Of a stretch of 64,000 bases of DNA, positions 6,507 to 57,900 are shown one piece after another; positions within the stretch are counted from its first letter, which is position 1; every line of letters begins with the position of its first letter. Origin of the DNA: Octopus vulgaris (lineage: Eukaryota); the NCBI GenBank assembly GCA_951406725.2, contig OX597837.1:41726001-41790000 (forward strand), read 5' to 3'. Position numbers and translations under genes: made by a program. Under the pieces are notes generated by a model. It saw only the letters and a program-made list of their open reading frames with translations, was not told the DNA's origin and did not search any database.

Positions 6507-6540
<34 letters not shown>

Positions 6541-12833: not shown

Positions 12834-13120
12834 TTATTCAGTGTGTGATCCATAACCCCTAAGGATGGTAAGGGGTTCCCTTATGCACAGCTTACACTTA
12901 ATATTTCCTTTGAAATTTGGGGTTTTAGAGACAATGGACCATTCTAGATAATAATTCTTATTATTTTTCTTCAAATTATGTATATGGGATGCAAGTGTTG
13001 TTGAATTACAATATTTATCGTTAGAAAATGAGCTCATAAGCGATCTATATCTAGCCTTAAAAATCTACCGTACTACCTATATAAAATTTATTTAACTTAT
13101 CCTTGTCCATGACTACACAC
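12834..13120 (-). mobile_element. Penelope-like element, GIY-YIG endonuclease C-terminal fragment
   Basis: KFYIGSTVDF...STTLASHIHNLK...LEWSIV...CKLCIRE (ORFs 13057..13263 and 12834..13037). Confidence 0.8.
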
Positions 13121-13129
13121 AGGAACCAT

Positions 13130-14770
13130 CCAAGGGACATATAGCCACAACGGCTATCATTGTGTTTAGATACAGTGTATGTTTGGTCTTTGTTGCTAAG
13201 GTCAAATTTTGCCTTTGTTAGTAATTTTTTCAAGTTTTTAGGCTGTCTTTTACTAAGAACCATAGCTCAATCCGTGATTATATCTTTTAATTCATTACTT
13301 TGAGCAATGATTGGTAGGTTTGCTTCAGCAATGTTGAAGATATTCTGGTGACATGGGTTGTGTGTCACTATGAATGGTATGACTTGTTCTTGTTTTCCTC
13401 TTCCTTGGGTTGTCCTAAGTTGTTGTATGGGTATTTTTATAGCCCACTGTATGCCATTTTCTATAAGTAGAGATGGGTATTTTTGTTTGAGCAAAAATTA
13501 TCTTAGCTCTGTTAGGCGTTTGTTCCTGATATTTGCATCTTCTACAATGGTACAAATTCTTCTGGTTAGGCAGTATGGGATGTTGCGTTTTGTATGTGGT
13601 GGATGGCACGACTTAAAATTCAGGTATTGATGTGTGTTTATAGTATATCTGTGGTGATGGTGGTGTCCTTTTTGATTACCATTATATCTAGGAATGGTAA
13701 TTTGGTACTACTCATCTCCTTTGTAAATTGGAGAGATGGGTGTAGGTTGTTCAGGAGGATATTGAACTCTTCCAGAGTATTTAGAGATTCTGTCCAGATT
13801 ATGAAGCAGTCGTCAAGGTATCTCTTCCATGCCTTTTCAATATACTTTCTAAATCCAGTGCCATAGTTTACCTCCACCTCTTGGTAGAGTTGTTGTTCTA
13901 AGTATCCCATTACAGAGTTGGTGTAAACGGGAGCAAACCTCGTTCCCATCGCTGTGCCTCTAATTTGGATACAATTCTTTCCATTGAAGAAGAATGTGTT
14001 GTTTTCTAGAATAAGTTTGACTGTGTCTAATATAAATGGCACTGTGAATCTGCTGGGAATCACTTCTCTGTTTTTCTAACCAGTATTTAATCGCCTTTAT
14101 TCCTAAATCGTGTGGAATATTGGTGTAGAGGCTTACCACATCAAAACTTAGTAAAACCGAATTTGTTTCTGTTGTTTTGGGAAGATGGGACAGGAAGTCA
14201 ATGTCATCCCTGATGAAACTTGGTATGTAAGTACATAGTGGTTTCAAAACAATGTCAATAAAATTGCTTAGACGGTGGGTAGGACATGCTGGAGCAGCTA
14301 TAATTGGTCTAAGTTTTGGGTCTTTTGGATGTAGTAATTTTATGTACTCACTTTCTTGTTCTTTTATTGCCTGTTGAATATCTTTTGATTTATGTATTTT
14401 TGGTAAGCCGTAGAAGTGTCTTTACCGTAATTTGTAGCATATTTGTCGAGAAATAATTGTTTCCGCTGCCAAAACTTTCTTGATCTGCTTTCTTCTTTTG
14501 AGATATCTCTGGTCCATAGTTCTCGCATTTTTTCTGCTATATTGCCGGTCGTTAGTTTGGATATTTCGTCTCTGATTTGATCATCGATAGCTTTGTATTT
14601 GGCTTTGTAGTGGGATTGTTTAGACAGGGTAATGGAGATGTCGGTCCTGAATTTTATCAAACTAAGATCCTATCAAAGTTTTGTTTCTTCCTCTGGTTCT
14701 CCTGCAATTTCAATTAATTAGGTACTTCCGAGGAAGTATGGGTGCCGCTAAAGATATCCATTTCGAATGT
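13130..14770 (-). pseudogene. Penelope-like element family A (Neptune-like): N-terminal domain fused to RT/thumb, frameshifted
   Basis: SFDVVSLYTNIPH, GTAMGTRFAP, WKRYLDD and LPFLDI motifs across ORFs 13960..14247, 13638..14063 and 13267..13494. The N-terminal piece 14364..14770 is homologous to 20664..21029. Confidence 0.88.
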
Positions 14771-14774
14771 ATTT

Positions 14775-14876
14775 CAGAACGCTCACGTGTACACCGACAA
14801 CAGATTAGAGACCCAGAGGTCCGTCAGATACCTTTGAGTAACCACCTAGCAACATGTGGTCGGAAAATAATATCAA
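14775..14876 (+). mobile_element. Short inverted Penelope-like GIY-YIG fragment
   Basis: ERSRVHRQQIRDPEVRQIPLSNHLATC resembles NRMAVHKSQIRNPDYRKIPVSGHID in ORF 45679..47406, but on the opposite strand. Confidence 0.65.
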
Positions 14877-15845
14877 ACAGTCATGAGAAGCTGAAACGAA
14901 TCTTATCGCTTCGAGTAAATGAGCATCGTCCTGGGGGTCGGCAAGAGGTGGTCTGTAGACAGCTAACACGGGCAGGCAAAACCCGGATAGGCTTAGCTTG
15001 CAATAGACGGCATCAAATTTCGTTGTAGGTTGAGCATTAGTGGGTAGAATACCGCTGGATGGTTTGGGATCAGATTTAACATACACAGCAACACCCACCT
15101 TGCCTTTTTTCTCTGTCACATCTGAAGAGGGCATAGCCCTGTAGGTGGATTTCTGAGTCCTTTACTGCTGGAGTCAGCCAAGTCTCGGTGATAGCTATCA
15201 CATCAGGGGAGTCACGTATGGCCAGTGTAAATAGTTCACTGAGCTTTGGAAATAAGGAGCACGAGTTGGTATAGACGATGCTGAGCTGTGAAGTTTGAGT
15301 GGCGGGAATTGGGGAACAAGCAGACTAAGGGGTATCGGAGATAGCACCGTTGTCGGGGGTATCTACTTTACTTTGATTCGCCCGCAATTCACTTTCCCTG
15401 TCAGCACTACAGCATGTGACCAGAGGTAGGGCTTGATTATCTGTCCATCTTGGATTCGTAAACCCTTCTCTCCCATTTGTTTCCTCATCTTTAGCTCGGA
15501 TATCAGGTTCCTCCGGCGAATTCTCTCTTAGTGAGTATTCCTCGTGAAAACCCATATTGGGGTCCTCCCAGGCATGCGTCTGAGCTCTGTTCAGAAAGAC
15601 TGAAGCCTCCCGATCAGAAGAAAAGATTACCCTTATTGGGCGTGGTCTAGTATCTGCGGTTGGGTTCGCTTGGAATCTTCCTAGCCGAGCGACCTTAAGA
15701 ACACTGACATTTTCGTTCACAGAGAACAATTCTCCAACCAAAATGGAAACAAAATTAATGTCATCTTTTCGGCGGTTTATGCCTGTATCACAGGTGGATT
15801 CAGCTTTACCATAAATGATTGCTGATCTTGAAGGATTCGGTTCAT
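14877..15845 (-). pseudogene. CR1-type LINE fragment: ORF1 end plus AP endonuclease start
   Basis: ORF1-like ARLGR...RPRPIRVIF (15325..15741), then IVYTNSCSL...PDVIAITETWL...GYALFRCDR...VGVAVYVK...AVYRPP. Confidence 0.8.
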
Positions 15846-15849
15846 TTTT

Positions 15850-17645
15850 GAGTCTCCCTTGAGTAGCGCTGTACTTTGGAGTATGGTGTTGAAGGCCTCA
15901 TTGTTAAGTGGGTTGTGTGTAGAGATGTAGGGTAGGGATTTTAAGTTTTCTTCCTTTTTTGGTTTTGGTTGTCTTGGGTCTTCTATATTTAATTTAAGTG
16001 CTCATTGGATTGTATTGTCTATTAAGGGCTGTGGATAATTCCTATTTATGAGTGTAGTTCTGAGTTCCTGGATACGTGTGTTTCTGCCTGATACTATGGT
16101 GCAAATCCTTCTGGCTAAACAGAAAGAGATATTCATTCTTGGGTGGTATGAGTCAAGTGGTATGTAATGAGTTGAGTCTTTTGGCTTATAATATTTTATA
16201 ATAGTTTATAAATCTGTCAGTTTATAATAGATAACCGTCTCTATTTTGTTCCCAACTTTCTTAATGCGGATGTCTAGAAATGGTAGTCTTTTCTAGGTTA
16301 TGTTCTATTGTGAATTGAATGTTTCCATTAATTCCATTTAGTAGAATTTTAAATTCAAGTTTTTCTATACTCTCATCCCAGAGATTGAAACAGTCGTCGA
16401 GATATCTTTTCCAGTTGTTCTGGATATAGGTGGAGAAAGAGTTTCCATATTTCTTGAGTGTTTTCTGGTAAAGTATTATTTCAAGGTATCCCATTACTAG
16501 GTTGGCAAAAGAAGGCGCAGATGTCTAGAAATGGTAGTTTTTCTAGGTAGTACTCAATTTTTATAATCATTTGTGTTCATTAATATTACCGCATTGCCCT
16601 TATCTGCCTCCTTGATTGTTATGGTTTTAATTTCTTTTAGTTTGATGAGGTCGTTCCATTCTCTTTTGTTGAGGTTTGGTCTGTATTTTTGCTTATTTGT
16701 GAGTTAAAAAGAGAAATTGGTTATGTGGTCGCAAAAGCGGTCTAAGGCTTTATTCTTTTCCTTGGTAGAGGTGTAATCGCTGTTGTTTCTAGCTATTGAT
16801 TCGTCATCCATGTGCTTGCCATGAAATTCCTTGGCAAGTTTAAATTTGTTAGAAAATTCCTATGAATGTTGGGGCCTGGACAAGTGCCATTGCTTCCCTT
16901 AGTTGCAGGTCTGAATTGTGGATTTGGTTTTGCTCTTCTAAAAAAGATTGCTGTTCAGCTGCTGCCCTTCTCGCATCTGAATGAAGCTGACCATTTGTTG
17001 AGCCATGCAGTATCTTTTTTTAGACCACGCATTACATCCGCATATCGTCTTTCGGGAGTAGTCAGTGTGCCATTTTTCCTTCTATGGTATCGTTCCTTTT
17101 GTCCTCCTTCTGCGAGGGATTTTTGTCTCGTGCCCATGCGGTTTTGTTCTTGTACTGGTAAATTTGTTGGGTAGAGGTTTGCTTGTGGTGGATTGCTTAG
17201 TTTCGTTGGGTAATTAGGGCAGGGTGAGTATTATTTAGGTGCGGGCTATTTCGTCTAATTAAGCACATTTTTTTTCTCGCGTGTTCATCTCGTATTATAA
17301 ATTTACCAAATATTGGGTGGTTCGAAAATGTATTTCGCCTAATAAATATTTTATTACTAGAATTTAGGAATTTCTTAACAACTGGAGCGCCGGTTCAACT
17401 CCAACCAACGGAACAAGGGACACAATGTTTTTCTGTTTATTTACCTCCGTAGCATTATGTAGCTTTTGATGTGTTTAAGGAAAGGTTTCAGAAGTGTGTC
17501 TAAGAAGTTGCTGAGGCGGTGGGTTTCACATGCTGGGCCTGCTATTATCGGTCTAAGTTTAAGATCATTCAGTGAGGGGATTTTGAGCGCTGGTTCAACT
17601 CCAACCAACGAACAAGGGGCACGATGTTTTTCTGTTTATTTTCCT
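15850..17645 (-). pseudogene. Rearranged Penelope-like family A fragments
   Basis: NWKRYLDDCF (16261..16494). 15850-16500 and 17470-17585 closely resemble parts of 46200-47280. Confidence 0.8.
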
Positions 17646-17905
17646 CTGTAACACTACCCCCTCTTTAAGCTTCTAGTCGACCCGACAGAAGCACACTACA
17701 GTCGTATCTCCAAACGACCTTCTCAACAGGTGCTCCCAACTGCCGAAGGTGTGCTCCAGCTGAACCGGCCAGGCCCATGGTACCTCCACAGACGGTTCGC
17801 ATGTATAATTTTCGGGGAAGACCTCCTGCCTCCCTTAATCCTGTACTTCACATCGGACAGGTGATTCACCACCATGTAAGGCCCCTCCCAAGGACTCTGC
17901 AGCTT

Positions 17906-18011
17906 ATGCATTCTGGGGAGAAAGCATTCCAGAGCAAGGATTTCGGAAAGACATTTTCTGACTCTAGTATATTCAAAGAACACAAGGAAATGCATTCTGG
18001 AGAGAAAGCAT
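17906..18011 (+). pseudogene. Captured single C2H2 zinc-finger fragment (degenerate)
   Basis: MHSGEKAFQSKDFGKTFSDSSIFKEHKEMHSGEKA: two HxGEK linkers 28 codons apart with F and HxxxH retained and both Cys lost. Confidence 0.75.
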
Positions 18012-18246
18012 GGCAGCACAGGGGAACTCAACAGCACTTGCTTGAGTTTGTCAAAAGCACGCTGTTATGGCAGTCCACTCGAACCTTTGGCTCTTCCCCA
18101 GTAGTTTGTGCAACAGCACAGCCACTGCAGCAAAGTCCTTCACAAAGTGCCTATAGTAGGTGCACAGCCCGGGGAAACTCCCTCACACAAGCAGGGACTG
18201 GCCAATCCTTCACGGCGGCCACCTTCTCTGGGTCGGTACAGACACC

Positions 18247-18684
18247 TATTTCTTTATTACCCACTAGGGGCGACGAAGAGGGAACATTACAAGACATGGG
18301 GGATATAAAACAATATGATTAAAATTATGAGTAAAGGAATGTTAAAATGAAAAAAATGATATGAAAGCGATGCTAACGGCCCCCTCCGCCAGCATCACTT
18401 ACCTGTCCGTTTCCCATCACAATTCCAAACTTTTTTACCTCACCCTTCATTTCTCTTTCATACCTCTCTATCATATCATCCTTCATATACGCTGTCAAAC
18501 AATTTATACACAATTCATTACACTTGTTCGTCAATGAGTCCATAAGTTCAGAATCAAACACCGCGTAGCTACCGTCTTCATACTCTTGCCATACATCATC
18601 CTGAAAAATCCTTTTTGCGTCCTCGGTGTCCCCCTTCCTCACAACACATAAAAAGTAGGTCTGGGGCCTTTGTTTGTTCTGTGT
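18247..18684 (-). mobile_element. 438-bp insert with 15-bp target-site duplication and SINE-like 3' tail
   Basis: gtcggtacagacacc occurs at 18232-18246 and at 18685-18699. The insert carries an unrecognised ORF end (stop at 18373) and ends gtgggtaataaagaaata, like SINE family 1. Confidence 0.75.
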
Positions 18685-19431
18685 GTCGGTACAGACACCG
18701 TCTTCGCCTACAATGTCCCAAGTATCTACTTCTTTCTGGAACAGACTGCACTTCTTTGGATTCAACTTGAGGTTTGCAGTTCGAAACCTCTCGAATACCC
18801 CTGATAACCTCTCCAGCTCTTGATCAAATGTTCAGCCAAACACTATGATGTCATCAAGATAGATGAGGGCGGCCTGCCAGTGTAGGCCCTCCAGGACTCG
18901 GTCCATCAGACGCTCGAAAGTCGCAGGGGCATTACACAAGCCGAACGGCATCACGCTGAACTGCCACAAACCCCGTCCGTACGAAAATGCGGTCTTCTCC
19001 CTATATTTCTCGGCAACCTTGATTTGATGGTACCCGGCCTTCATGTCCAAGGTAGAGAACCACCAAGCCCCCGCTAAAGTATCAAGCGTGTCGTCGATCC
19101 TCGGCAAAGGATGCGCATCCTTGACCGTCACTTCATTGAGCGCTCGGTAGTCCATGCAGCATCTCGCCGTGCCGTCTTTCTTCCGCACTAAAACAATGGC
19201 TGACGACCAGGGGCTGTTCGATCTTTCCACTATTCCCTGTTGTTGATATTCCTCCATCACTTCTTCCATTTCCTGTCGCTGAACTGGGGCCATCCTCCGC
19301 GCTGGCTGCTTGATTGGGCGATGGCCACCCATGTCGATATGGTGCTCCACCAGGTTCGTGCAACCGAGGTCTCGATCCCCCGCAGAGAACACGTCAGCAT
19401 ACTTCACTAGTGGCTTCCTCAACCTCAACAC

Positions 19432-20670
19432 CTGAGCACCATCTCAGCACTGGCGACTCTGTGCGAACAGATCTTGTAAATGCACAGGCAGACCGCAACC
19501 GACTCTGCAGGCAGCCTTGAAAAAAATATTTTACGTAAGAGCGGCGCGTCTGCTGCGTTGCTGCTTAGCTCCCTTAGATGGCGCAGAAACTGGGATGGAG
19601 TTCTGTCCCCTAACTGCTCGTCGGCCATCAGCTCATTAAACTGACTTTCTTCTGAGCGCGTATTGCGACGCCTTTATTTCCGCCTTTACTGACGCATATG
19701 TGGCGTCAGGATGGGGACTCACAATGGGATCCCTGACCGATGTTGCGAGCCGGGAGGGCAAACTTGAATACAGTAGATGTAACTGCTGTTGTGGAGGAAT
19801 GGTATACGCGGCAAAGTGTGATTCCACCTGTGCAAACCACAGCCCCGCATCCCCCGTGAATGAAGGCAAACCTGAAGCCATGCCTTTGTCGGAAGGAATC
19901 TGTGAGAAGGGGGCAGAGAGTATGGTCGAGAAATGGAGAGAGAACACGTGGAACCGACAAAGCAAATCAAAATTGCGTTTTGTGTGTGCACCTCGTGGGT
20001 AGCAAAAAAAAATAAGTGTGTGTACAAGGAAAACAAAATACAGAAAAGGAAAAATGAATGTGTGTTTTCTTTTTTTTCTGTTTTTTTTTTTTTGTTTTGT
20101 TTTGTGTACTGAGTGCGATGAATAATGTTATTTGACCCACCTCGCCGTGCTGAAAAAAAAAAAAAAAAAATGAAAATAAATATGAATTTTCCGCGCTCTC
20201 CGGCAAAAAAACCCTGTTCGCTGTGTCTTCTATCCTGTTCTTTTTTTTTTTTTTTTTCACGTCGGGGTCACCAATTGTAACGTGAAAGGATCTATTATCG
20301 AAGCACTGGAAGGGTGTCGAGATCCTTTCTAGTCACATATAAAATTCTTCCAGAAAACAATACAGACGAACTCGGGTTAAAAGGGTGAACAGACAGTAGT
20401 TTGGTTTATTGATTTCAGTGTAGTACGTTGTCTGGTGGGGGAAAGACAGCCTCTGATATACTGCTTCGTGTTGGTCGTTGAAGTTGGTTGCTGGCCGTGT
20501 GGCGGTCAGAGCCGAGAATTCGTGACCGATCGCAATGCTGTCTTAGCCGAAGAGAGAGATTTGAGGTTCGCGGGCTCGAGGGACGTTTTCCCGCACATGC
20601 GCATGGGGAAGACTTCCGGTGGCCACCCGGAAGTAGTCCCATTCTGCGCATGCGCGCCGAACCCTACACA
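19432..20670 (-). mobile_element. Ty3/Gypsy 5' end: LTR, tRNA-Trp PBS, gag fragment
   Basis: LTR about 20276-20670 (TGTGTAG...GTTACA on minus, internal AATAAA); gag LPSFTGDAGLWFAQVESHF...LGDRTPSQFLRHLREL. Confidence 0.85.
20257..20273 (-). promoter_or_regulatory. Primer-binding site complementary to tRNA-Trp
   Basis: Minus strand TGGTGACCCCGACGTGA, 2 nt after the LTR end. The plus strand equals the metazoan tRNA-Trp 3' end TCACGTCGGGGTCACCA. Confidence 0.85.
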
Positions 20671-21230
20671 GTAGCATCACTACACTTTTTTTCCCAGCAT
20701 AGGAGAGAATTTCTCTCTTCTTTTTCACAAGTATCCTTCCAATGATCTAATGTATTTTCGAGGGGTTGTCCCTCGGTATGTTTTAGTATTTCATTGTGCA
20801 TCTCCTCGTCGATGCTTTTATATTTTTCCTCATTTGTGGAGGCCCTAAGTCTTAGTAATTCTATCTCTGATTTTAGATTGAATAGAGCTGACCTTTCCCT
20901 AATAGTTCTCTGTCCGTCAGGTTCGTTGGGTATTACTTTGATCTGGAATTTGCGTGGGAGGATAATTGGTGTTGGGTTCATATCCATCCCTCGTATATAT
21001 CTGCTTTGTTGGAATACAAACCTGCACAATAGAAAAAATCGCTTTCTGGAACATGATAAAAAAATTCCAAATGTTTTCTGTCTCTCTTTTTGTTAGATGG
21101 ATTTGTGTACATATGATGTCCTGGTGTGTTTCGTTTGGTGTGCGCTGGTTGCTGTTCGGCTTGTTTGTGAATGCCGACTTTAGTGTAGGGCACGGAGTGT
21201 TCAAATCGTTACTGATTCGTTCTTGTTTTA
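20671..21230 (-). pseudogene. Probable Penelope-like family A N-terminal domain fragment
   Basis: PIILPRKF...EP...KYKSIDEEM...W...EE.S...W.KK aligns by eye with the 14364-14770 segment, which abuts family A RT. Confidence 0.55.
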
Positions 21231-21929
21231 AGATGAAATCGTTGAAGGTGATTACCTACATCGTCGGGGAACCCATTCACGAACGCCAGCCGGGCTGCTC
21301 TCTCCAGCCCTTCTCCCGCAAACCCAGCCAGAGTCGCTAACCTTCTAACCTCTGCTGCATAGTCATCCACTTGTCCTCCTGTCCATCTGATCGCACCTAG
21401 CTTAGCAAAAGCTGTGTATTCACATTCTGTGTAGGCATCCCGCAAGCGTCGCTCTAAGTTCTCCTCACTGAGCCGTTCCTCTTTGTCCATCTCAAGGTAT
21501 AGCGTTAAGGCGCTCCCTTCTAAATACAGCGCCATGAGACTTGCCACATCGCTTATACCTTGCAGTCTTGCCACCAGCCTGATTTTGCGAATCCAGGCCA
21601 CTACATCGCCTTCACCATTAAAGGTGGTTGTTGTTCATTGTTGGGTTTGTCAACCCGAAATTTCAAGTGGTCGTAGTCTTTTGGCGGCAGAGGTACTTTG
21701 TGGCTTTTTACATATACAATGTGTGCATTTACTTTAGTTAAATTAACTAAAAACCACAAAATGTACCTCCACCATTTCATCCCAGGTCTACCAACTGGGT
21801 AATATGCCCGATATTGGTCGGATTTGTCTACCCCACCCATATATTTGTTGTAACAAATATTCACGAGGGGTTTCCCCTCAGCACCAACACCAAGTTGTTC
21901 GTTAGAAGACAGAAATAAAATCTGAGGGC

Positions 21930-22495
21930 TGAGCCTTGGTGTACACCTACTTCTACCCGGAATTCTTCTATATTCGTTGCCAATCCTAACCTTGCTGACG
22001 GCCTCTCTGTATAGGGCCTGTACAGCCATTCGTCAATCTCCAGTTTCCGCATCGACCACCAAGATTGAAGGCTTTCTCCAAGTCCACAAAAGCTATGTAG
22101 AGGAGTTTATCTTTAGCTAGGTACATCTCCTGCAGTTGTGAGACCAGGAATATAGCATCAGTGGTGCTTCTACCTGGCACAAAACCAAACTGCATCTCAT
22201 CTAAGCAAATTCTCTCCCTAATGAGATGGATTATGACCCTCTCTGTGACCTTCATCACCTGATCCAACAGTTTAATACCCCTGTAGTTATTTCTATCTAG
22301 AGCATCACCCTTACCCTTGTAGCAGTTGACTATGGTGCTGCTACGCCAGTCATTGGGTATGACTCTATTATGAACTACCTGGTTTACAATGCGGGTGACT
22401 AGGCTATAACCCACATAGCCAGCTGTTTTAAGCATCTCAGCAGTGATTCCTGATGGGGGGGGGCTTTACCTGGTTTCATACCCTTAATTGCCTTA
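21930..22495 (-). pseudogene. RTE-clade LINE RT fragment (second copy at about 24525-25113)
   Basis: IPNDWRSS...YKGKGDALDRNNYRGIKLL...QFGFVPGRSTTDAIF...AFVDLEKAF...VGVHQGSAL. Confidence 0.88.
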
Positions 22496-22559
22496 AAAGC
22501 CACTGAAGAAGAAAAAAACGGTCGAAATAGAGGTGTCGGTGCTGATGGTGGAAAGGTTG

Positions 22560-23370
22560 TGTAAGGGACCATACATCATCATGTCCCAATCCATGCGGTC
22601 TTTTCCCATTATACTTCTTACCTGTGTTAACATCGAAGTTTACACAGTATCCCATCTCCGATTCACAAACTTCCCATAACCTTGATACCCCATTTAGTAG
22701 GTTTGGCAGGCATGTACTGCCGAAAATGTACTCTGCCCTTAAATCCTATCATGGCTTCATCTACACTGAGATTTTTTTTTCCAGGTAAATAAAGTTTTAT
22801 AATTATGTACAAGTAAATCAATCACAGGACGTACTTTGTACAGGGGATCGTAGTTTGGGTCGTTTTTGTTGGGGGCATTGGAAGAATCAGTCAAATGTAA
22901 ATACTGAGATGTTTTCGAATACCTCGTCTTCGACATGATGCTCGAAATATATGGATCTCCAATAGTTCCACAGTCAAGGACGCTGTTTAACTCCAAACAT
23001 AATGTTGATCGTAAAAAATGCTCTCATTTCCGCAGTATTAGTTGGCTGCCATAGCGGATCGTTTCTTCCTCAAACAGAAATTAAATGTTGCACATAATTT
23101 ATTCGTTTCCTCCGCAACATTTTCAAAATAACTTTCAGGCAAAAATAAAAACAGATAGTCCAGTGGTTAAGCATCAGGAGATAAATTATGTTGTGGACCA
23201 GTGTTTTCTGTAAAATCAGAAATTGTGACTGGTGTCGTAATTTTCGACCATGTTGCCTTACTTACAATAACGTTTTCTTCACTTTCGTTATCGAATTCTT
23301 CTTCGTCCGACGAGTAATCACTGATATCAATATCAGATTCATCCGAAGTCAAAATACTTTTGTTTCCGTT
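22560..23370 (-). pseudogene. piggyBac transposase family 1, N-terminal half (second copy at about 25180-26000)
   Basis: Acidic N-terminus, EMRAFF, DPLYKVRPVID, LSVDEAMIGFKGRVHFRQYMPAK. Confidence 0.88.
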
Positions 23371-44790: not shown

Positions 44791-44832
<42 letters not shown>

Positions 44833-44954
44833 AAAAAATGAAGTTCGAAAATGCTGCTGTATTATACAATTTTTAATTTTTATATATACATTATAACATG
44901 TTTCAGTTCCTGAAATGAACCTTATCAAAAAAAGTTATATATAAAAAAAGACAG

Positions 44955-45403: not shown

Positions 45404-45678
45404 CTAGTCAAGCAGAAAAGGACGTCATCAATATTCTGACTAATGACTGTCCCCTGTTTGTATCCTGTCCATTCTAGCAGAGCTAGACGTCATCAACTTG
45501 TTGACCAATCAGAATCGGGTCTGACCCTTAGCTGTATCGTATGTATCGGGGTCAGATTTGCACGAAAGAATTTTTTTCCTTTTTTACTAAGGCATATTTC
45601 CGTCAGAGCGAGTGTCTGTTTAAAGTAGCGGCCGTGGTGGAATTTTGCTTCTCCTTTTCGGAGGACTTATCTTTTGTT

Positions 45679-47336: not shown

Positions 47337-47339
47337 GGA

Positions 47340-47880: not shown

Positions 47881-48862
47881 ACTTAGATCATGTATTAGCG
47901 CTTTCTTCCATTCTAGTGGCGTTTTCAAATCAAACTAAGTTCCTGTGTGAGGAGTTTTGACCATTTTATAGTGGTATTGAGTTTGTAGTGGTGGGGAGGA
48001 ATATGACAGTACAAGAGGGTGATGGATGAGGAGAAAGTGAGAGAGAGAGAGAACGTGTGTGTGTGTGTTTTTGTATTTGGGATGAGTGCTAAAGAAAAAG
48101 AGGGGAAGGGAGAGGGAAGAAGAAAAGAATTATTTTTGGTCTGCTGGGCAGAATATTGACTCCAAGGGGGTTACAAGATCTTGGGGAAAAAAGAATTTCA
48201 GTTTTGACCATTTCAGTGTCACTGAGTGTGTGGTGGCGGGGAGGGAGGTGGACCATAAATTATATCATTCATATGAGTGAAAGGTGTGTTTCTACCAGTG
48301 CATGCACCTATAGGATTTTTCAACCATTGTATTTACTAAAGGGAATTTGTCGAACAACATATGGAAAAGTTCGGAATTACAGACGTCACCAAATTTTCTG
48401 CCCCTTTCAAACGGAAAGGATACGGAAGTGACATGTGACGGGAGAATTGGACCGTAGACGAAAATCCCTTAGATGTTCGGCGAATTGGTCTGAGAACCGG
48501 CGTCTCGTCTGTCCTATATACAGCATTCCGCAGAGGTTGCATTTAATGCAGTATATGAGACCAGACGAAGTACACGTAAAAGAATGTCTCATACGTACAG
48601 TTCGCTGGTTGGATATTTATATATTAGAAGAAATGAGGTACTCAGAAGATCGGATGGTTTATATTTACAGATGTTTATTTGTATATTATTTTTTTATATA
48701 TCAATGCTCAAGCCCATTCTGCTAAAAAAAACTAGCTAATCTGTTTTTAGTCTTCTGTATCATATTGTTCGGAGCATTCTGTAGCTAAAGTAGACAATCG
48801 TCTCGATACAGACCGCCGCAGATGTCCGGGAATTGGTCAGCCATTTCATAGATAATATAGAT

Positions 48863-49860
48863 TCAGACCAAATCGGCTATCTGGGCGCTATCTGTACTTC
48901 CCATTAGCACATCGAACTCGTTGGGGGTATCTCTGCGGACCCACAACTTATCGAACTGTATGAAAGATTTTCTAGCCGCTAAAATCACATTAATTTCCTC
49001 CCTGGAGAGGCCTGCCTTATTATGTGCATGCCATAGGGCCATATTGAGTACACTAGGGTTGATCAAAGGGTAGAAACTAGATATATCGAATTGAATGAAT
49101 TTTGTGTTGTCCTTATTAGTAATAGAAGTAAACCACTCTACGACTTGAGTGGAGTTAGACCATAAGCTGAGTTTTAACTTATTTATTAATATAGGTATGT
49201 ATTTATCTAAAATGTACTTACTAAGGGTACCGATGTCAGAACTAGAGGGGCATATGAGCCTTAATGCCGGGTTGGTATGAAAGTTTGGTTTATGGTCCTT
49301 AACGATGAATCTTGGTTGTCTGGGGTTCAGCGGTTGTGTTTTCATTTGTAATCTATACGTTTCCATGATTTTCTTAATTTCTAAGTTGGCTTGTCTGAGT
49401 GTATTCCTATTTGTTGTCCTGTAATTCTTGTGTATTTCTTTCTTGAGCATTTCTAAATACTGGTTCTTTGCAAGCTTATACATGTTCCCGGTTTTATCCA
49501 GTTGGACCAGGATAGCGTCTAATCTGTTTATATCTTTGGTGACTTTATCGAGGTATTTGAGGTGTTTATTCCTAAGGGGCGATTTACGGAATTTAATGTC
49601 CCTTACGATGTCCCACAGATCATCTTCAAATTCTTCAGTCTGGGATTAGGTGGAGGGGTTCCCCTCGACCTAAATAACTTTTTATATTCGAAAGAGGCGT
49701 TGATACTGTTCCGTTTCATGTCCTCATTATCGTGGAAGAAGGCGAGCCATCTGATGCGGTTGATAAATGCATTTGTTTTGTTAACAATTTCCTTAAGGAA
49801 GGCTTCTTTTGGTGGCATTGGTATGTCCTTAAGGGATGCGTTAATGTCGAACAACTCCAT
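48863..49860 (-). pseudogene. Penelope-like family E, N-terminal half of RT
   Basis: SLKDIP, FINRIRW, DKTGNMY, RLICP, FIQFDISSFYP, MGSTDSAQIADLV. Confidence 0.88.
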
Positions 49861-49921
49861 TTGCGGTATCGGTTAAGGTTCCATTCTTTCACATATATAT
49901 GCGTAACGCCAAAATAAAGAA

Positions 49922-50877
49922 CTATATTTCATCAAAAAATTCAAACCAAGTTTGAACACCCTGGGCCAGGAATATTAAAACAAAACATTGGTCTTCCGAA
50001 AAAGAAAAACGAAACTCTACCACAACCACTACGACTGCTCCCACTAGCACTACTACTACTACGGCCACAGTGAGAGAATTAAAATAGTGGAGGTGGGGGC
50101 AATTACAATTTCTCAGATCCTAAACAGTCATTCCCGCTGGCAGTGGTAATGTCTTAGGGAAGGAAAAATTTATAAAAAGATTTTTTTCTCTGCGAGCAGA
50201 TCTGATTTTGATTCGTCAGAAAATTGACGTTTTACCTCAGTGGTCAAGCTTGTCGCCCTGCTTGGTTGGTTTCCTTACAAAATACAGTTATGGGTCAGGT
50301 CTGATTTTGATTCGTTAAAAAATTGATGACGTTTTTCTTCCGTGGTCAAACTAGTCGTTCTGCTAGGTTGGTTTCCAAAACAGGATACAGTTGGGGGTCT
50401 TTTCCTTATATTCGTTGAAGCTTGGTTTTGATTGGTTTGGAATTATATGACGTCAGTGAACAGTGCCAGAGACCACGACCACTACTGCTTTCACAGCCAC
50501 AGCTTAGCTGATATAAACCCAACCATCACCAAGTTTACCAAAATTACGCCAACAGACGACGACCAAGAATCACTACTGTTGCTCCCATTGGAACACAAGG
50601 TAAAATCTATAACGAACTCCTGCACTACACTTGACAAAACAGTAAGGAACGACTATGGATTTTTTTCTATTATACTCCTTATAATATATTTTTCGCCTTT
50701 CCAAGAACATGGATTCTATTGAATGTATATAGCATGGACTCTATTGAATGTATGTAACAATTATGAACTGTTCCATTATACACTTTATTATAAATTTTTT
50801 TGATAAGGTTCGTTATTTCAAGAACTGAAACATGTAAAATTAAAATTTATCTAATATGGTGGCATTTTTTACAAATC
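49922..50877 (+). mobile_element. Family A ORF end plus pLTR in inverted orientation
   Basis: YFIKKFKPSLNTLGQEY-stop matches the end of ORF 45679..47406. It contains ttgataag-gttc...gaac-tgaaa-catg-ta and ends ttttttacaaat, as does 44826-44930 on the minus strand. Confidence 0.85.
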
Positions 50878-50879
50878 TT

Positions 50880-51650
50880 TACACTTTTTTTAAAAACTTA
50901 GGCCTTAGGATTACCTTAGAATCCAACTTAACGAAAGCTAACTTCCTTGACGTTACCCTCGACTTAAAAACCTCACTTTATTACCCGTACCGCAAACCAA
51001 ATGAATCCCTTAGATATATAGACATTAATTCCAACCACCCCAAAAATATATTAGACAACCTAGTAAAAAGTGTCTCAATTAGAATATCTAGCCTGTCCGC
51101 TACTGAAGATATCTTTAATGCAGCAGCGCCCTATTGCAACGAGGCCCTGGCTCGCAGTGGCTTTAAAGATAAGATCACCTATACTAGTATAGCCCCACGC
51201 CAACCCAGGAAAAATAGGCGAAGACACATTAGCTGGTACAACCCCCCCTTCAACCATGAGGTCGTTACACCTGTAGCTAAAATCTTCTTCACTCTCCTAC
51301 AGAAACACTTCCCCACCCAACATAAGTACTACACTATCCTAAATAAGAACACCATTAGACTCTCCTACTCTACCACGCCCAATCTAGCCAGGAACCTAGC
51401 CAACAACAACGTGAAAAAACTTAATATATCTACTTTTTCCGAGGCCCATCCAACATCCGATAGCAATTGCAACTGCCCTGATAAAACCACTTGCCCCCTC
51501 AACAACAACTGCCTACAGAGGGACCTTGTCTATACATGCGAGGTACAATCAGGCCCCGATGATAAAAGAAAATCGTACATCGGAATGACGTCAAACAGCT
51601 TTAAGACCCGCTGATACGCCCACACACACTCGTTCCGGCGACCTGATAAA
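50880..51650 (+). pseudogene. Penelope-like YRDD-type element, RT C-terminal half and endonuclease start
   Basis: NFLDVTLDL, SNHP, WYNPPF, CNC..CPL...CL, LVYTC...YIGMT (ORF 50856..51614). Confidence 0.88.
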
Positions 51651-51674
51651 AATATATATATATATATATATAGT

Positions 51675-54010
51675 CATCTAACGCCACACGTAGCTACCAG
51701 CAAACGGTATCCTCTACTGTCCATGACCTCATCTCGTCCTCCCATCTCCCCCACACCGCACGCAACCTAATTGTGCGAACCCCACGCACCCCCACCATTT
51801 ACTTCCTCCCCAAAATCCACAAACCCAACAACCCTGGCCGCCCCATTGTCTGCGCCTGCAACTGCCCCACGGAGCTCATTTCAAAATACCTCGACCATGT
51901 CCTTGCACCCCCCCCCCCCCCCCCCTAGTGGCGCCTCTTCCCTCAAACATCCACGGCACCAACCATGCTCTCTGGCTGTTCAACTCTTTCTCCTTTCCTC
52001 CCGGCTCCTCCAAAATATTTTTTACAATGGACATCCAGAGTCTCTATACCGTCATCCCTCACCACGAAGGACTGAGGGCACTTTAATACTTTCTCGACCT
52101 CCGCCCCAACCCTGAACCCAATACCTCCACACTCATTCGTCTGGCCGAACTTGTCCTTTCTCTTAACTGCTTCTCGTTTGTGGGCGAGTTCTACCAACAG
52201 ATTCCGAGAGTGGCCATGGGAACACGAATGGGCCCCAACTATGCGAACCTGTTCGTTGGCTATGTTGAGGCCCAAATATTCTCTAATTTCACTGGTCCAA
52301 CTCCCGAACTATAAGGTCGTTGCATTGACGACATTATCGGTGCCACCTCACTCTCCCGTGAACATCTCGATTCCTTCCTCTCTTTCGTTCAATCCTTCCA
52401 TCCTGCCCTCCACTTCACCTCCACTATTTCCAACACCTATGTCTCCTTCCTCAACATTTCGGTCAGCATTCATCACTCCACTCTTACCACCTCCATTCAC
52501 TACAAACACACACTCACACCTAAACTTCTCTTCCTCCCACCCAAACACACCAAGCTTTCCATCCCCTATTCCCAATTCCTCCGTCTACGTAGGCTCTGTA
52601 GTGACGGCCATGACTTTGAGACTCAACTTCATCCTACGTGGATACCCCCTCACCACTATCCACACCGCCCTTGCCAGAGCACGTTCCGTAGACCGTGCAT
52701 CTGCTCTCTCCCCCCGAACCCGCCCTGTAGTCTCCCGCCTCCATTTTCCCCTCACCACCCCACGACCCTACCTCTCCAACGCACCATTCTTCGAGCTTTC
52801 CAGCATCTCCAGTCCGACCCGTCCACTTCACACCTCTTCCCTAACCGACCCCTCCCCTCCTTCAAACGAGCCCATAACCTACGAGACCTTTTGGTCCACA
52901 GCTCCTTCCTTGACCCTACCTCCCAACCTGGCTCGTTCCCCTGCTCCCGCCCACGTTGTCACACTTGCACTTACCTTTCCAACACCACCCTCCTCACTGG
53001 TACCCATCATCGACCCTATCACATCATCAACTCCTTCACCTGCACCTCCAGCAATATCATCTATTGCATCTCTTGCTCTCTCTGCCATTCCCTGTACATC
53101 GGACAAACGGGACGCCGCTTGGCTGACCGGTTCGCGGAACACCTCCATGACATCCTCTTTGCCAACAACACCGGTCTCACGCCATTTCTGCTCCACCGGC
53201 CACTCCTTGCAACACCTGTCTGTTTGGTTTGTCCTTGCACAGAGGCCATCCGGATTCCCGTTTGCGCCGTGAACAGGGATTAATCTTCTCTCTTTGCTCT
53301 TTTATGCCATTTGGTCTCAACTCTCCCCCCTCCTCATCTAATCTCCCTCCCGACTCCTGCTTCTCTTCGGTCCTTCATCTTTTCACCCCTACTCTTTCCC
53401 TCTTCTTTCCTCTTTCTTCTTCTCTCTTTCTCTCTGCTCCCTCACTCCCTTCTCCCCCTTTCCCCCTCCTCATCACCCCCTCATCTCACTCTCACCCCTC
53501 CTTTCCTTCTCTCCCATCTCGCCCCCCTCATCTCACCCTCCTCACACTCACCTTCCCACCCCCTCATCTCCTCCCCTCACCGTCTCTCCCTCCCCCACTC
53601 TCCCCCTCATCTCCCCTCTCTACACTACACCATACGACATTACACATCGCATACATACACACGTCCAGACCTTTCATAGGCACCACATACTCTCTCTTAC
53701 ACACACGCACCCTTATGTTGGGGTGAAGTCATTTGACCCTGTTAACTCCCCTATTTTCGCTCTTGCGTCTCACGTTTGATCTCTGACTTCTGGCCGGAAT
53801 CAGATCGCCATGTTGAATCACTAGCTTCTGCATGCATTTTTTCTCTCCTTGTTTCTCTCTGTGTTTCTTTTCTGTGTATCTTTCTGTCGAAGAGCGTGGG
53901 CTCGAAACGTAAAAGACTTGTTTTATTTATATTCCTGAGCGCCATACTAATACAATTGTTTGTTTGTATTCCACCTGCCTTCGTCTTTTGTTTATTTTCA
54001 TAAAGCTTCT
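51675..54010 (+). pseudogene. Penelope-like family D (C-rich) RT + GIY-YIG + tail
   Basis: FTMDIQSLYTVIPH, VAMGTRMGPNYANLF, CIDD, CSRPRCHTC, NIIYCISC..C..LYIGQT, PFGLN. Confidence 0.88.
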
Positions 54011-54080
54011 CGTTATATATATATACATACATACACACATACATACACACATACATACACACATACATACACACATACAT

Positions 54081-54111
<31 letters not shown>

Positions 54112-54112
54112 A

Positions 54113-57100
54113 GAATGGAGAAAGTAAACATAGAGTTTTCCCCTAAGGACATCCCCTTACACAGTAAGGATGAATATATCTGGCTACTAATCCATAGAAT
54201 TAACGATTTCCTTAGAAGAATTAGATGGAAAACTTACCATTTTGATATCAAGTGGAATAAGGACCCTCAAGCAAGGAATACTGATAGGAGTTATAAGAGA
54301 ATTTTTAGAAACAGAAAGAGCCCGCCTCCGAACCCACTCCTGGAAAATTTCGAAAAAGATTTACTGAATCTTATAGAGGATATTAAATTCAAAGAACATC
54401 CGTTAAGATACAATCCTCACCTTAAATATCTCAGAAATTTTATTTATTCGACTCGGAATAAGTAAGGAATCTTAGTGCCAGCAGATAAAACTGGTAATCT
54501 TTATAGATTAGATTAGATTAGATTACGCTCTTTATTGCAAACTAATTAAGAAAGAACTCAAATATAAAATAACAACCAGGAATAATTTGAAAAAAAATAA
54601 ATCTGGAAATGAAAGAAATTATGGAAAAGGTACAATTTAATGGATAGAACAGAGCCTCTTAAACCGTGTGAACCTAAAATCAACCTTAAGGACCACAAAA
54701 GAAATTTCCTAGAAATTCCTTTTCCTTCCCTTCCAGCCCCTCACACCTCCTCTTCACCTTACACATAAAATCCCTGTATACGGTAATTCCCCACGACGAC
54801 AGTCTCTTAGCCCTCCAACACTTCCCTGACCCCAGCACCCCCACCCTTCTCCGCCTGGCTGAGCTCGTCCTCACCCTCAACTGTTTCACGTTCGCCGGGA
54901 AAACGTACCAACTGTTGTCTGGGGTCGCGATGGGAACAAGAATGGGCCCCAATTTCGCCAATCTCTTTGTTGGCTACATTTGTTGGCCCAAGTATTCTCC
55001 CAATTCTCTGGGCCGACCCCAGAACTATACGGTCGCTACATAGACGACTGCATAGGCGCCACCTCCCTTTCCCGCGAACTTCTCTGCCACTTCATCTCTT
55101 TCCTCTCTAACTTCCACCCCTCTCTACAATTCACTTCCACCATCTCCAATACTTCTGTTAACTTCCTTGATATCTCTCTCACCACCTCCGCCTTCTTCAA
55201 ACCCACGGATTCCCACCTCTATCTCAACTTCTCCTCCCACACCAAACGGGCCATCCCCTACTCCCAGTTCCTCCGCCTCCGACGCTTGTGCAGCTGCGAC
55301 CAGGATTTCGAGACCGTCTCAATACCTGGCCTGCCTGTTCAGGCATCCAGGATACCCACCTACCCTGGTCTTGAACACCCGCGCTCGTTGCATCGACCGC
55401 ACCACCGCTCTTTCTCCTTCCTCTCACCCATCCCCCAACCGCACCCCCTTTTCCCTCCTTTTCCACCCCTCTACTCTACCCCTTCGTCGGAAGATACTAT
55501 GGTCCTTCTAAGAGAAATAAAAAAAAAAAAAGAAATTATGGAAAGATACAATTTAACGGATAGAACAGAACTGCTCATACTGTGTGAACCTAGAATTAAC
55601 CTTAAGGACCACAAAAGGAATTTCTTAGAAAACCTGTCGGTAAGGCTTATTTGTCCAACTAAGTCAGATATTGACCGACTTAGTAAATCTATCCTTGACA
55701 TTGTTCTACCCCAAATAACCCCGCTTCTTCCCTTAAGTTTATGGATAAATACCGATGAGGTATTAAAATTGTTTAACTCCCTAACCAATACTAATAATCT
55801 GGCCTTTATTCAATTCGACACAAATAACTATTACTCTAGTATTTCCCCTATTCTGTTAAATAAATCACTCATATTCGCTATGAATCGCTCCCTCATATCT
55901 AGAGAAGAAATCGACATTGTACTATTAGCTAGAAAAGCATTTATAGAGTTTGAGGGAAAATTATGGACCAGAGCAGACACCCCTAATAATTTCGATATAC
56001 CAATGGGTTCCAGTGATTTGGCTGAGGTGACTAATTTAGTAGGTGCATATCTACTAAAATGCATAAAAAAATGAGATCCCGGAATTGCAAGGTGGTTTAT
56101 ATAGGGATGATGCTTTGTTTGTTATCCCTAGCAATAATAAATCGAGCATTAAAAGGATTAGAAAGAAAATTAATAGGTTCTTTAAAGATTTCAACCTTAG
56201 CATAACCTATGAACCAGGCACTAAAATAGTCAATTTTCTAGATATTACATTAGACCTTAACTCTAAGCTACATTACCCATTTAGAAAAGAAGGCGAAATC
56301 ACAAGTTACGTAAATGAATTATTAAATCTTCCCCCAAATATAATTAATATTTTGGCCGCCCCATCGTTTCCGCCTGTAATTGTCCCACCGAACGCATTAC
56401 CCTATACCTCGACTGCATCCTGTCCCCTTTAGTCGCTGCCCTCCCATCCCACATTCATGACACTAACCATGCCCTCCGTCTCTTCAATTCCTTTTCCTTC
56501 CCTCCCAGCCCCTCACACCTCTTCACCTTAGACATCAAATCCCTTTACACTGCGATTCCCCACAACGACTGTCTCTTAGCCCTCCAATTTTTCCTCGACC
56601 GTTGCCCTGACCCCACACACAGGACCCCCCCACTCTCTCACCACCTTCGCCTTCTTCAAACCCACGGATTCCCACCTCTACCTCAACTTCTCCTCCTCCC
56701 ATCCCTTCCACACCAAACGGGCCATCCACATCTCCCAGTTTCTCCGCCTCCGACGCTTCTGCAGTCGCGACCAGGATTTTGAGACCCAGTCTCAGTACCT
56801 GGCCCGCCTGTTCAGGCATCGAGGATACCTCCCAACCCTGGTCTTGAACGCCCTTGCCCATGCTCGTCGAAAAGACCGCACCACCGCCCTTTCTCCTTTC
56901 TCTCACCAACCCCCTGACCGCACCCCTTTCCCCATCTTTTCCACTCCTCCACTCTACCCCTTCGTCGGAGGATACTACGTGCCTTCCGCCGTCTCCAGCT
57001 CGATCCCATGACCCGCCCCATTTTCCCCAACCCACCCCTGTCCTTCAAATGAGCCCGGAATCTATGCGATCTCCTGGTCCGTAGCACCCCTCTCTTCTTC

Positions 57101-57900
57101 CCCCTCAGCCCCACATGGTTCCTTCCCATGCTCCAGATCCCGCTGCAACACCTGCCCCTTCATCTTCCAACCAGCAAACTGTACGTATCAGACATTCTTT
57201 TACGTGTACTTCGTGTGGTCCCATATACTGCATAAAATGCAACCTCTGCGGGATGCTTTATGTAGGACAGATGAGCCGCCGACTGGCCGACCGGTTCGCC
57301 GAACATCTAAGGGATGTTTGGCTGCGTTCCAACTCTCCTGTCGCCTGTCACTTCCACTCGGCCAACCATTCCCCCGGTGACATCTGTGTTTGGTCTCGCC
57401 CCACACAACGGACCTCCACAATCCAGGCTTCATTTGGACCAACGGTTCATTTTCACTTTACAGACCAATACCCCACACGGACTCAACACAGCCCCCTCCT
57501 CTTAGTGACTGCGTCTCCACCTCCCGCAACAAGCAACTTTATTTTTTCCTTCTTTTCTTTTTTTCTTTGTCTTTTTTCATTTTCCTTTCTCACGTGCTAT
57601 TACGTCTTTTATTTTATTTTTTACTTTTTTATTGTTCATATTTTTTTTTATTTTAATGTTTTTATAGATTATTGTTCTTATACACACACACACACTCATG
57701 TATCCACAAACACACACATACAACATACATGCACATGTACACTCACGCATATATACATGCACATGTACACACACATACTTCCACACATACACACACGCAT
57801 ATATACACACGCACACGAATGCACACACCCAACACTCACAACCACACAGATACACGTATATACACCCATATACGCTTACTAGTTCCTCTGCTTTTTTTTT
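54113..57900 (+). pseudogene. Alternating mosaic of Penelope-like families C and D (C-D-C-D)
   Basis: Family C at about 54113-54718 and 55505-56350 (mirror of 38390-39740). Family D at about 54718-55490 and 56355-57500 (YIDD, GVAMGTRMGP, LYVGQ). ORF 54980..56074 runs across a D-to-C junction. Confidence 0.88.

What the first reader, a model, noticed from the sequence alone, without database searches (positions are those of the whole stretch)
12834..57900. 45-kb strand-polarised archive of transposon coding fragments: candidate flamenco-like piRNA cluster in a cephalopod
Seen: dozens of abutting fragments from about nine unrelated groups (Penelope-like, Gypsy, CR1-like, RTE, L1/Tx1, a CCCH-ORF1 LINE, piggyBac, hAT, Helitron). 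Nearly all read on the minus strand over 12.8-49.9 kb. The only + exceptions I found are two pieces of about 100 bp (14775, 17906). No element is complete and spacers are minimal. Known: independent insertions take either orientation, especially cut-and-paste DNA transposons, whereas uni-strand piRNA clusters such as Drosophila flamenco consist of TE fragments antisense to one long transcript. Inference: a + strand transcript here would be antisense to a broad sample of the genome's mobilome, i.e. a heritable TE-immunity memory locus.
Basis: partly seen in the sequence, partly recalled or inferred. Interest (0 to 1): 0.92.

Follow-up and report, generated by a model that had tools for sequence, protein, structure and literature searches.

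The report
Likely octopus antisense transposon-memory (piRNA) locus
In an octopus genome, 37 kb just behind the PrimPol gene is packed with broken pieces of about 25 young jumping genes, nearly all facing the same way, the layout known from loci that make small silencing RNAs in slugs, flies and mice, although the small RNAs themselves have not been shown here.

Summary
Observation confirmed, with corrections. Over 12.4-49.9 kb, transposon protein matches cover 79.6% of the DNA: 29,770 bp on minus, 91 bp on plus, nine groups. Eight arbitrary windows reach 2-15% cover. Eight TE-dense windows reach 22-41% and, where several groups occur, mix strands. My hand count is 25 minus versus 2 plus independent insertions (p=6e-6). 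Corrections: a third plus piece (314-bp SINE), and 49.9-57.9 kb is all plus-strand Penelope, so the polarised block is 37.5 kb, not 45. Natural element ends and target duplications show nested insertion followed by deletion and local copying, not a template-switch concatemer. Contigs from three studies bridge junctions, arguing against misassembly; one junction is polymorphic. Most pieces are 89-99% identical to dispersed copies. The block starts 2.7 kb after PrimPol's stop codon and is antisense to PrimPol's direction. Best reading (0.7): a uni-strand piRNA cluster transcribed on plus, possibly by PrimPol read-through. Small RNAs, strand and promoter are untested. It is not flamenco-like by composition. 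The closest match is the slug Arion's uni-strand clusters, so this is a new candidate member of a known kind.

The parts
1616..9672 (+). Last seven coding exons of PrimPol (the gene starts about 10.4 kb left of the window); last coding exon 9,406-9,672; candidate host gene for a read-through precursor
   Evidence: 98% to a protein named O. sinensis PrimPol, C-terminus included; exon map by tblastn
11127..11540 (+). Six AATAAA/ATTAAA hexamers, probable normal PrimPol poly(A) region, about 0.9 kb before the block
   Evidence: function inferred
12408..49879 (-). Strand-polarised block (candidate uni-strand piRNA cluster body; precursor would be on +)
12408..12587 (-). Old piggyBac piece (72%), left edge of the block
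13144..14777 (-). Penelope family A, two pieces joined by a deletion, 96-97% to dispersed copies
14776..14873 (+). Inverted 98-bp piece of the same Penelope family (exception 1)
14868..15831 (-). APE/RT LINE (CR1-like) ORF1/endonuclease piece, 94%
15832..17586 (-). Penelope pieces related to family E (79-92%); 16,860-17,455 unidentified
17648..19500 (-). Gypsy A pol pieces (85-90%) interrupted by a plus-strand zinc-finger bit (17,906-18,011) and an unidentified 425-bp insert (18,252-18,676)
19507..20684 (-). Gypsy B 5' LTR with natural TG end plus start of gag, 95%; its left junction differs in other samples
20687..28808 (-). Four-level nest: Penelope I holds piggyBac A (TTAA/CCC end at about 28,370), which holds Gypsy C (5-bp target duplication at 25,996-26,000 / 27,323-27,327) and an RTE-like LINE piece; then a 2.4-kb tandem duplication at 95%
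28833..33480 (-). LINE RT piece, Penelope B (88-94%, locally duplicated) and Penelope C
29544..29857 (+).
   Evidence: (loose ends show a B-box-like head in other copies)
33654..35719 (-). Gypsy D 5' LTR (TG end at 35,719), gag and protease, 93-97%
35720..36721 (-). hAT transposase internal piece, 95%
36712..38347 (-). piggyBac B transposase piece, 87-89%
38344..39837 (-). Penelope D, 95%; donor of the 449-bp patch at 44,955-45,403
40192..43737 (-). Helitron piece (91-97%) holding a Tx1-like LINE (40,262-42,913) that lacks 2.4 kb internally
43737..44788 (-). LINE with CCCH-type ORF1, 5' piece, 94%
44789..47341 (-). Very young Penelope E (99%); about 570 bp replaced by 449 bp copied exactly (100%) from 39,155-39,603
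47415..49879 (-). Penelope H-like and Penelope F (96%) pieces; right edge of the minus block
49905..57550 (+). Right arm: about five Penelope insertions, all plus (77-98% to dispersed copies), locally duplicated; either the 3' tail of the cluster, a second arm read from the right, or a plain Penelope nest
   Evidence: 5 of 5, p=0.06

Best explanation
The 37.5-kb block is most likely a uni-strand piRNA cluster. Shown: young transposons of every class inserted here one into another and were then cut down by deletions, tandem duplications and copy-in repair, leaving roughly one 0.3-2 kb sample per family, nearly all on minus. Inferred: one long Pol II transcript crosses the block on plus. It starts either at the PrimPol promoter by reading through the PrimPol poly(A) region or at an own promoter near 11.6-12.4 kb. 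It is processed into PIWI-bound piRNAs antisense to the mRNAs of Penelope, Gypsy, LINE, piggyBac, hAT and Helitron families dispersed in the genome. Selection keeps antisense insertions, which give silencing guides, and removes sense ones, which give no guides and can stop the transcript. That explains why even cut-and-paste elements face one way.
For: Strand: 29,770 bp versus 91 bp; hand count 25 versus 2 insertions (p=5.6e-6), 14 versus 1 without Penelope (p=1e-3), 9 versus 0 for LTR, DNA transposons and Helitron (p=0.004). Background: 8 of 8 arbitrary 40-kb windows at 1.7-15.3% cover; 8 TE-dense picks at 22-41% cover with majority-strand share 0.57-0.76 in 7 of 8, and 0.93 in one that holds a single group. 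Sharp borders: flanks of 112 and 106 kb have 6.2% and 0.5% cover. Youth: best dispersed copies are 89-99% identical for the families queried. Composition differs from background: Penelope 43.5, Gypsy 19.5, piggyBac 14, RTE 3.7% versus RTE 51, Gypsy 0.7, piggyBac 0.5%. Mollusc clusters are likewise enriched for Gypsy, DNA transposons and young elements (PMC6128900, passages). Locus-specific contigs of runs X1, X17 and X18 (three studies) bridge four junctions with at least 31 letters on each side, and two contigs run on unlike the window at about 19,500, so the locus is real and polymorphic. The block lies 2.7 kb behind the PrimPol stop and is antisense to PrimPol's direction. An octopus PIWI is listed (PMC12479628 supplement row), octopus piRNAs are reported (PMC12479628 section 22), and the same layout yields piRNAs in the slug Arion (PMC11615739, passages).
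Against: No small RNA, no strand and no promoter data; the defining feature is untested. The TE library was built from this window's own families, so cover and composition contrasts are inflated (strand counts are not). The window was singled out from a large scan, so the p-values need that discount. SINE poverty (0.8%) is shared by TE-dense windows (0.5-5.5%) and is not specific. AATAAA on plus is not below what composition predicts (14 versus 13.4 +/- 3.7). The 8-kb right arm is sense to a plus transcript. One background region (G000:C19:798-868 kb) reaches 84% one-strand share in its best 37.5-kb stretch at 39% cover, so partial bias occurs elsewhere. Only 16 background windows plus the flanks were examined.
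Confidence: 0.7

Rival explanations
1. Transcribed but not a piRNA source: the block lies in a long plus-strand intron, 3' extension or lncRNA; sense insertions are purged only because they bring splice and poly(A) signals, and antisense ones pile up neutrally.
For: It also explains the polarity, and PrimPol points into the block. Minus orientation puts 37 AATAAA on the other strand and leaves 14 on plus.
Against: PrimPol's own introns and the FUT8 region are SINE- and microsatellite-rich with 0-2% TE-coding cover. Purging alone does not explain 80% cover by young autonomous elements, deletion to one sample per family, or near-total bias. From my own knowledge, intronic antisense bias is usually a few-fold.
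Confidence: 0.13
2. A silent heterochromatic TE nest whose polarity comes from chance, same-family nesting preference and local duplication.
For: TE-dense windows show moderate bias (0.57-0.76, one 0.93) and low SINE content; Penelope pieces dominate; duplications inflate raw fragment counts.
Against: Bias holds after collapsing duplicates and without Penelope (14 versus 1) and for LTR/DNA elements alone (9 versus 0). The nest is a sharply bounded island between two ordinary genes, 6 Mb from the contig end.
Confidence: 0.1
3. A two-armed locus: the left arm is read on plus from the PrimPol side and the right arm on minus from the right (FUT8 read-through or a promoter near 58.3 kb), each antisense to its own elements. 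This extends the best explanation rather than replacing it.
For: The right arm is 6,042 bp plus versus 0 minus and abuts the left arm head to head. FUT8 lies on minus pointing at it. CpG-poor DNA, a hint of a transcribed body, runs from 60 to 72 kb.
Against: The right arm has only about five insertions, all Penelope (p=0.06). FUT8's last exon is 20 kb away across ordinary repeat-rich DNA, and no exon was identified at 58-77 kb. Sense insertions are tolerated at the 3' end of uni-strand clusters (PMC10643416, passage).
Confidence: 0.2
4. A concatemer made by a reverse transcriptase jumping between TE mRNAs (template switching), so that polarity is mechanical; or an assembly artefact.
For: Many junctions are blunt or share 1-4 bases, and Penelope is the main component.
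Against: Natural ends and target duplications exist that only ordinary transposition makes: Gypsy C 5-bp duplication, piggyBac TTAA/CCC end, three LTR TG ends, SINE 16-bp duplication. Nested elements resume in register on both sides of the insert. Independent runs bridge junctions; the window has no N.
Confidence: 0.03

Closest known systems
Uni-strand piRNA clusters of slugs (Arion vulgaris, PMC11615739; Deroceras laeve, PMC12506671)
   Same: Mollusc; densely packed transposon fragments on one strand, with piRNAs made from the other strand in Arion's top cluster; top clusters unidirectional in both slugs.
   Different: Those were defined from small RNA. This one is in a cephalopod and is predicted from DNA alone. 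The passages I read give no family-by-family orientation or host-gene link for the slug clusters.
Mammalian piC-DoGs, piRNA clusters downstream of genes (PMC11615739)
   Same: Dense antisense TE fragments beginning just behind a host gene's 3' end and running tens of kb; host coding sequence undamaged.
   Different: Described in mouse, human and hamster. Read-through is not shown here. The content here includes Penelope, piggyBac, hAT and Helitron rather than L1/ERV.
Drosophila flamenco and flam-like clusters (PMC10643416, PMC10495008)
   Same: One-strand TE bias, nested and fragmented content, fast turnover between individuals, sense insertions at the far end.
   Different: Flam-like bias is specific to env-bearing Gypsy elements in follicle cells, and D. 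melanogaster flamenco is 79% antisense over more than 350 kb. Here 37.5 kb, 99.7% of coding bases, all classes biased, Gypsy 19.5%, and no third (env) ORF of 200 aa or more in the four Gypsy parent copies.
piRNA clusters of Lymnaea, Crassostrea and Mizuhopecten (PMC6128900, PMC11067994)
   Same: Composition unlike the genome average; enriched for Gypsy, DNA transposons, Penelope or Helitron, and for young copies.
   Different: The passages read report no orientation analysis; no cephalopod clusters.

Membership tests
Uni-strand piRNA cluster | Produces abundant uniquely mapping 24-32 nt PIWI-bound RNAs with 1U bias | not testable with these tools
   Only assembled contigs were served; they cannot show small RNAs.
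Uni-strand piRNA cluster | One long precursor from a single strand | tested here: inconclusive
   Locus-specific contigs exist in runs guessed to be RNA, but contigs give no strand and the RNA label is not on record.
Uni-strand piRNA cluster | Dense TE fragments mostly on the strand opposite the precursor | tested here: met
   79.6% cover, 99.7% of coding bases on minus; precursor strand inferred.
Uni-strand piRNA cluster | Holds young families that have dispersed copies to silence | tested here: met
   89-99% best identity in 14 of 14 answered own-genome searches.
Uni-strand piRNA cluster | Host has a PIWI/piRNA pathway | not tested
   Not searched in this genome. O. bimaculoides PIWI and piRNAs are reported in PMC12479628 (section 22, supplement row), O. 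vulgaris Piwi expression in PMC9115989 (passage).
flamenco / flam-like cluster | LTR enrichment with strand bias driven exclusively by Gypsy | tested here: not met
   Gypsy 19.5% of coding cover; Penelope, LINEs, piggyBac, hAT and Helitron equally biased.
flamenco / flam-like cluster | Targets env-containing Gypsy/ERV elements | tested here: not met
   No third ORF of at least 200 aa after integrase in 4 of 4 parent copies examined; one copy per family only.
flamenco / flam-like cluster | Expressed in somatic follicle cells | not testable with these tools
   No tissue data.
piC-DoG | Cluster lies directly downstream of a gene, TEs antisense to that gene's direction | tested here: met
   PrimPol stop at 9,672 on plus; block starts at 12,408 on minus.
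piC-DoG | Precursor is a read-through of the host gene, with piRNAs also from host exons | not testable with these tools
   No listed contig bridged 11.6-13.1 kb, but table 8 is cut and PrimPol exons were outside the stretch laid.

The most novel reading that the evidence does not exclude
PrimPol read-through drives a broad-spectrum antisense piRNA cluster in octopus. That would be a gene-downstream cluster outside mammals that archives one short sample of each active class, cut-and-paste transposons included, edits itself by copy-in repair (the exact 449-bp internal patch), and possibly meets a second arm read from the FUT8 side. It would show the same way of building transposon memory in octopus and mammals, by deep ancestry or convergence.
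Probability: 0.3. Interest if true: 0.75.

Novelty: new member of a known kind. Interest (0 to 1): 0.55.

Why it matters
Octopus genomes are dominated by active transposons, yet my searches found no described cephalopod piRNA cluster locus. This block gives exact coordinates, a predicted strand, unique junction sequences and a list of target families, so existing small-RNA libraries can test it directly. It would also test whether gene read-through builds piRNA clusters outside mammals, and whether selection on orientation acts on DNA transposons as strongly as on retroelements. The strand-plus-density statistic used here could find such loci in other cephalopods without RNA data.

Tried and rejected
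No RNA holder listed: the run search for 19.5-29.4 kb returned no holder on record as RNA, which says nothing on expression. Contig depths look higher for locus-specific contigs in X1 than in its sibling X3 relative to repeat depth; I did not use this as evidence, because depth there is a poor measure and no silent control stretch could be laid. SINE and microsatellite poverty as a cluster signature: rejected, TE-dense windows share it. Depletion of poly(A) signals on plus: none beyond composition. A CH-domain gene at 59.0 kb (Pfam E=0.003): the stretch is AT-rich repeat-like DNA, taken as chance. Search for a gene at 58-77 kb: 38 candidate ORFs without Pfam hit, no convincing exon. Viral origin of the unidentified inserts: 18,376-18,690 gave no homologue and only a weak Helitron lead below the recognition threshold; 16,958-17,230 gave nothing. 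A formal microhomology test was dropped because 5-15% divergence from the parents blurs junction ends; junctions are only described. Right arm as a recent inversion of left-arm DNA: not supported; its Penelope D-like copy is 91% to the left-arm copy, whose best dispersed copy is 95%. Left out of the insertion count for unknown orientation or non-independence: 16,860-17,455, 18,252-18,676, 33,482-33,618, 39,840-40,194, 47,786-48,265, 48,613-48,703 and all internal duplicates. No DNA parent was obtained for 32.4-33.5 kb; its family rests on Pfam and protein similarity. Earlier findings of the scan: none returned.


Full report
Setting. The window is G000:C24:41,726,001-41,790,000 in a 2.80-Gb genome of 227 contigs, on a 48.2-Mb contig. 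An exon at 9,415-9,669 is 98% identical to the C-terminus of a protein that its source names Octopus sinensis PrimPol and 81% to O. bimaculoides PrimPol, so the animal is an Octopus. PrimPol runs on plus from about 10.4 kb left of the window to its stop at 9,672. FUT8 lies on minus, its last coding exon about 20 kb right of the block. The window has no N.

Observation. All 360 stop-to-stop ORFs of at least 62 aa were scanned with Pfam. Every TE-domain hit between 12.8 and 49.9 kb is on minus. I then located dispersed relatives of most pieces in the same genome (14 answered searches), fetched 22 parent loci among others, confirmed their classes on 42 of their ORFs and used 86 of their ORFs as one tblastn library for all windows. 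Over 12.4-49.9 kb the library covers 79.6%: 29,770 bp on minus and 91 bp on plus, nine groups. DNA tiling accounts for 33,919 of 37,472 bp in 58 pieces, median 443 bp, and shows that LTRs and element ends face minus too.

Is it more than chance? Eight 40-kb windows at round coordinates chosen without looking gave 1.7-15.3% cover. Some are one-stranded, but only because they hold one or two blocks. Eight windows picked for holding hits of these families gave 22-41% cover and a majority-strand share of 0.57-0.76 in seven; the eighth reached 0.93 with a single TE group. The 112-kb and 106-kb flanks gave 6.2% and 0.5%. After collapsing duplicates and pieces of one element, and leaving out six stretches of unknown orientation or doubtful independence, I count 25 minus and 2 plus insertions (p=5.6e-6; 25 versus 3 with the zinc-finger bit, 2.7e-5). 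Without Penelope it is 14 versus 1 (p=1e-3), and 9 versus 0 for Gypsy, piggyBac, hAT and Helitron (p=0.004). Caveats: the library favours this window for cover and composition, the window was selected from a scan, and a region on C19 reaches 84% one-strand share at 39% cover. SINE poverty is not specific and plus-strand poly(A) signals are not depleted.

How it was built. The pieces are remains of ordinary insertions. Gypsy C has a 5-bp target duplication inside piggyBac A; piggyBac A keeps a TTAA/CCC end inside a Penelope; three LTRs keep their TG ends; the SINE has a 16-bp target duplication; a Tx1-like LINE sits inside a Helitron. Most other junctions are blunt or share 1-4 bases, as expected of deletions. 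A 2.4-kb tandem duplication at 95% and a 449-bp patch copied exactly from 5.8 kb away into a 99%-young Penelope show continuing local rearrangement. Best dispersed copies are 89-99% identical, so the block samples recently active families. Its make-up (Penelope 43.5%, Gypsy 19.5%, piggyBac 14%, RTE 3.7%) differs from the arbitrary windows and flanks (RTE 51%, Gypsy 0.7%, piggyBac 0.5%).

Independent sequence data. Four of the 24 listed runs were laid on 11.6-31.5 kb; all are contigs. Counting only records with at least 31 letters on both sides: X1 bridges 18,676 (751 nt, 8 differences) and 28,370 (320 nt, none); X17, a genome-sized run, bridges 28,370 and 29,336; X18 bridges 18,012 and 18,676. 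They come from three studies, so these junctions are not assembly artefacts; junctions right of 31.5 kb were not tested. One X1 and one X18 record stop fitting at about 19,500 and carry 400-700 further letters, so the Gypsy A/Gypsy B joint is absent from those alleles. X1 is only guessed to be RNA and contigs give no strand, so transcription is not shown.

Mechanism. Cut-and-paste and LTR elements insert either way round (established knowledge), so near-total polarity needs a strand-aware filter. The simplest is a long plus-strand transcript (inference). The density, youth, breadth and whittling fit selection for antisense guides better than mere protection of a transcript, since PrimPol's own introns look ordinary. 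I put 0.7 on a uni-strand piRNA cluster. The block starts 2.7 kb after the PrimPol stop and 0.9 kb after six poly(A)-type hexamers, so read-through from PrimPol is a natural source; an own promoter is about as likely. The right arm is undecided.

Comparison with print. PMC11615739 (passages) describes piRNA clusters downstream of genes in mouse, human and hamster, and in the slug Arion a top cluster making piRNAs from one strand over densely packed TE fragments on the other. PMC12506671 (passages and section 29) finds 21 unidirectional clusters giving 90% of cluster piRNAs in Deroceras. PMC10643416 (passages) finds flam-like strand bias to be Gypsy-only, notes sense insertions at 3' ends, and reports that two DNA-predicted candidates with small-RNA data both made piRNAs from one strand. 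PMC10495008 (passages) gives 79% antisense for flamenco and fast turnover. PMC6128900 and PMC11067994 (passages) report mollusc clusters enriched for Gypsy, DNA transposons, Penelope and young copies. PMC12479628 (passages, section 22, one supplement file searched) reports O. bimaculoides piRNAs and a PIWI; I saw no locus list there. PMC9115989 (passages) notes Piwi expression in octopus brain. Nine searches showed no cephalopod cluster locus, and 'PrimPol' with 'piRNA cluster' gave 0 papers. The library lacks many subscription papers, and supplements or databases that I did not see, including those of octopus small-RNA studies, could list this locus.

Verdict. It works like a uni-strand, antisense piRNA cluster; membership is untested on its defining feature; it fails the flamenco composition test. 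New candidate member of a kind known in molluscs, with a 0.3 chance of the more novel gene-read-through form. Interest 0.55.

Noticed in passing
window 18,252-18,676: 425-bp insert inside the Gypsy A pieces with a 105-aa minus-strand open frame; partly high-copy in all four runs laid; no homologue found, weak Helitron lead only.
   Followed up: partly
window 12,601-12,660 (-) and 17,906-18,011 (+): Two C2H2 zinc-finger gene fragments inside the block; the first would give guides antisense to zinc-finger mRNAs.
   Followed up: no
G000:C19:798,001-868,000 (L094-L096, L040, L097-L099): TE-dense region with six groups, 15,232 bp minus versus 4,825 bp plus, 84% one-strand in its best 37.5-kb stretch; possibly a second, weaker polarised locus.
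   Followed up: partly
window 60,000-64,000 and L011 (to about 72 kb): CpG-poor stretch (observed/expected 0.19-0.39) like a methylated gene body, but no exon identified; a TGACGTCA motif sits at about 58,339 near the right edge of the block.
   Followed up: partly
window 44,955-45,403: 449 bp copied exactly from 39,155-39,603 into a 99%-young Penelope, replacing about 570 bp: a very recent templated repair within the locus.
   Followed up: yes
window about 7,200-7,570 (+): Degraded mariner-like transposase fragment in the last PrimPol intron (label from recall of the translated motif).
   Followed up: no
window 62,974-63,375: Minisatellite of 26-bp units, 15.7 copies, related to the SINE-like repeat at 12,120-12,260.
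   Followed up: no
L004-L005, about 56-65 kb left of the window: A long Tx1-like LINE on minus, 31-56% amino-acid identity to the one in the block; most of the TE-coding cover in the upstream flank.
   Followed up: no
run X1, record 1: A 3,885-nt contig of Penelope family A, about 95% to the block's pieces, in the same run that holds the block's junctions.
   Followed up: no
window 11,015-11,560: Low-complexity T/A/C-rich stretch with a 30-bp repeat between the PrimPol stop and the block, holding the poly(A)-type hexamers.
   Followed up: partly
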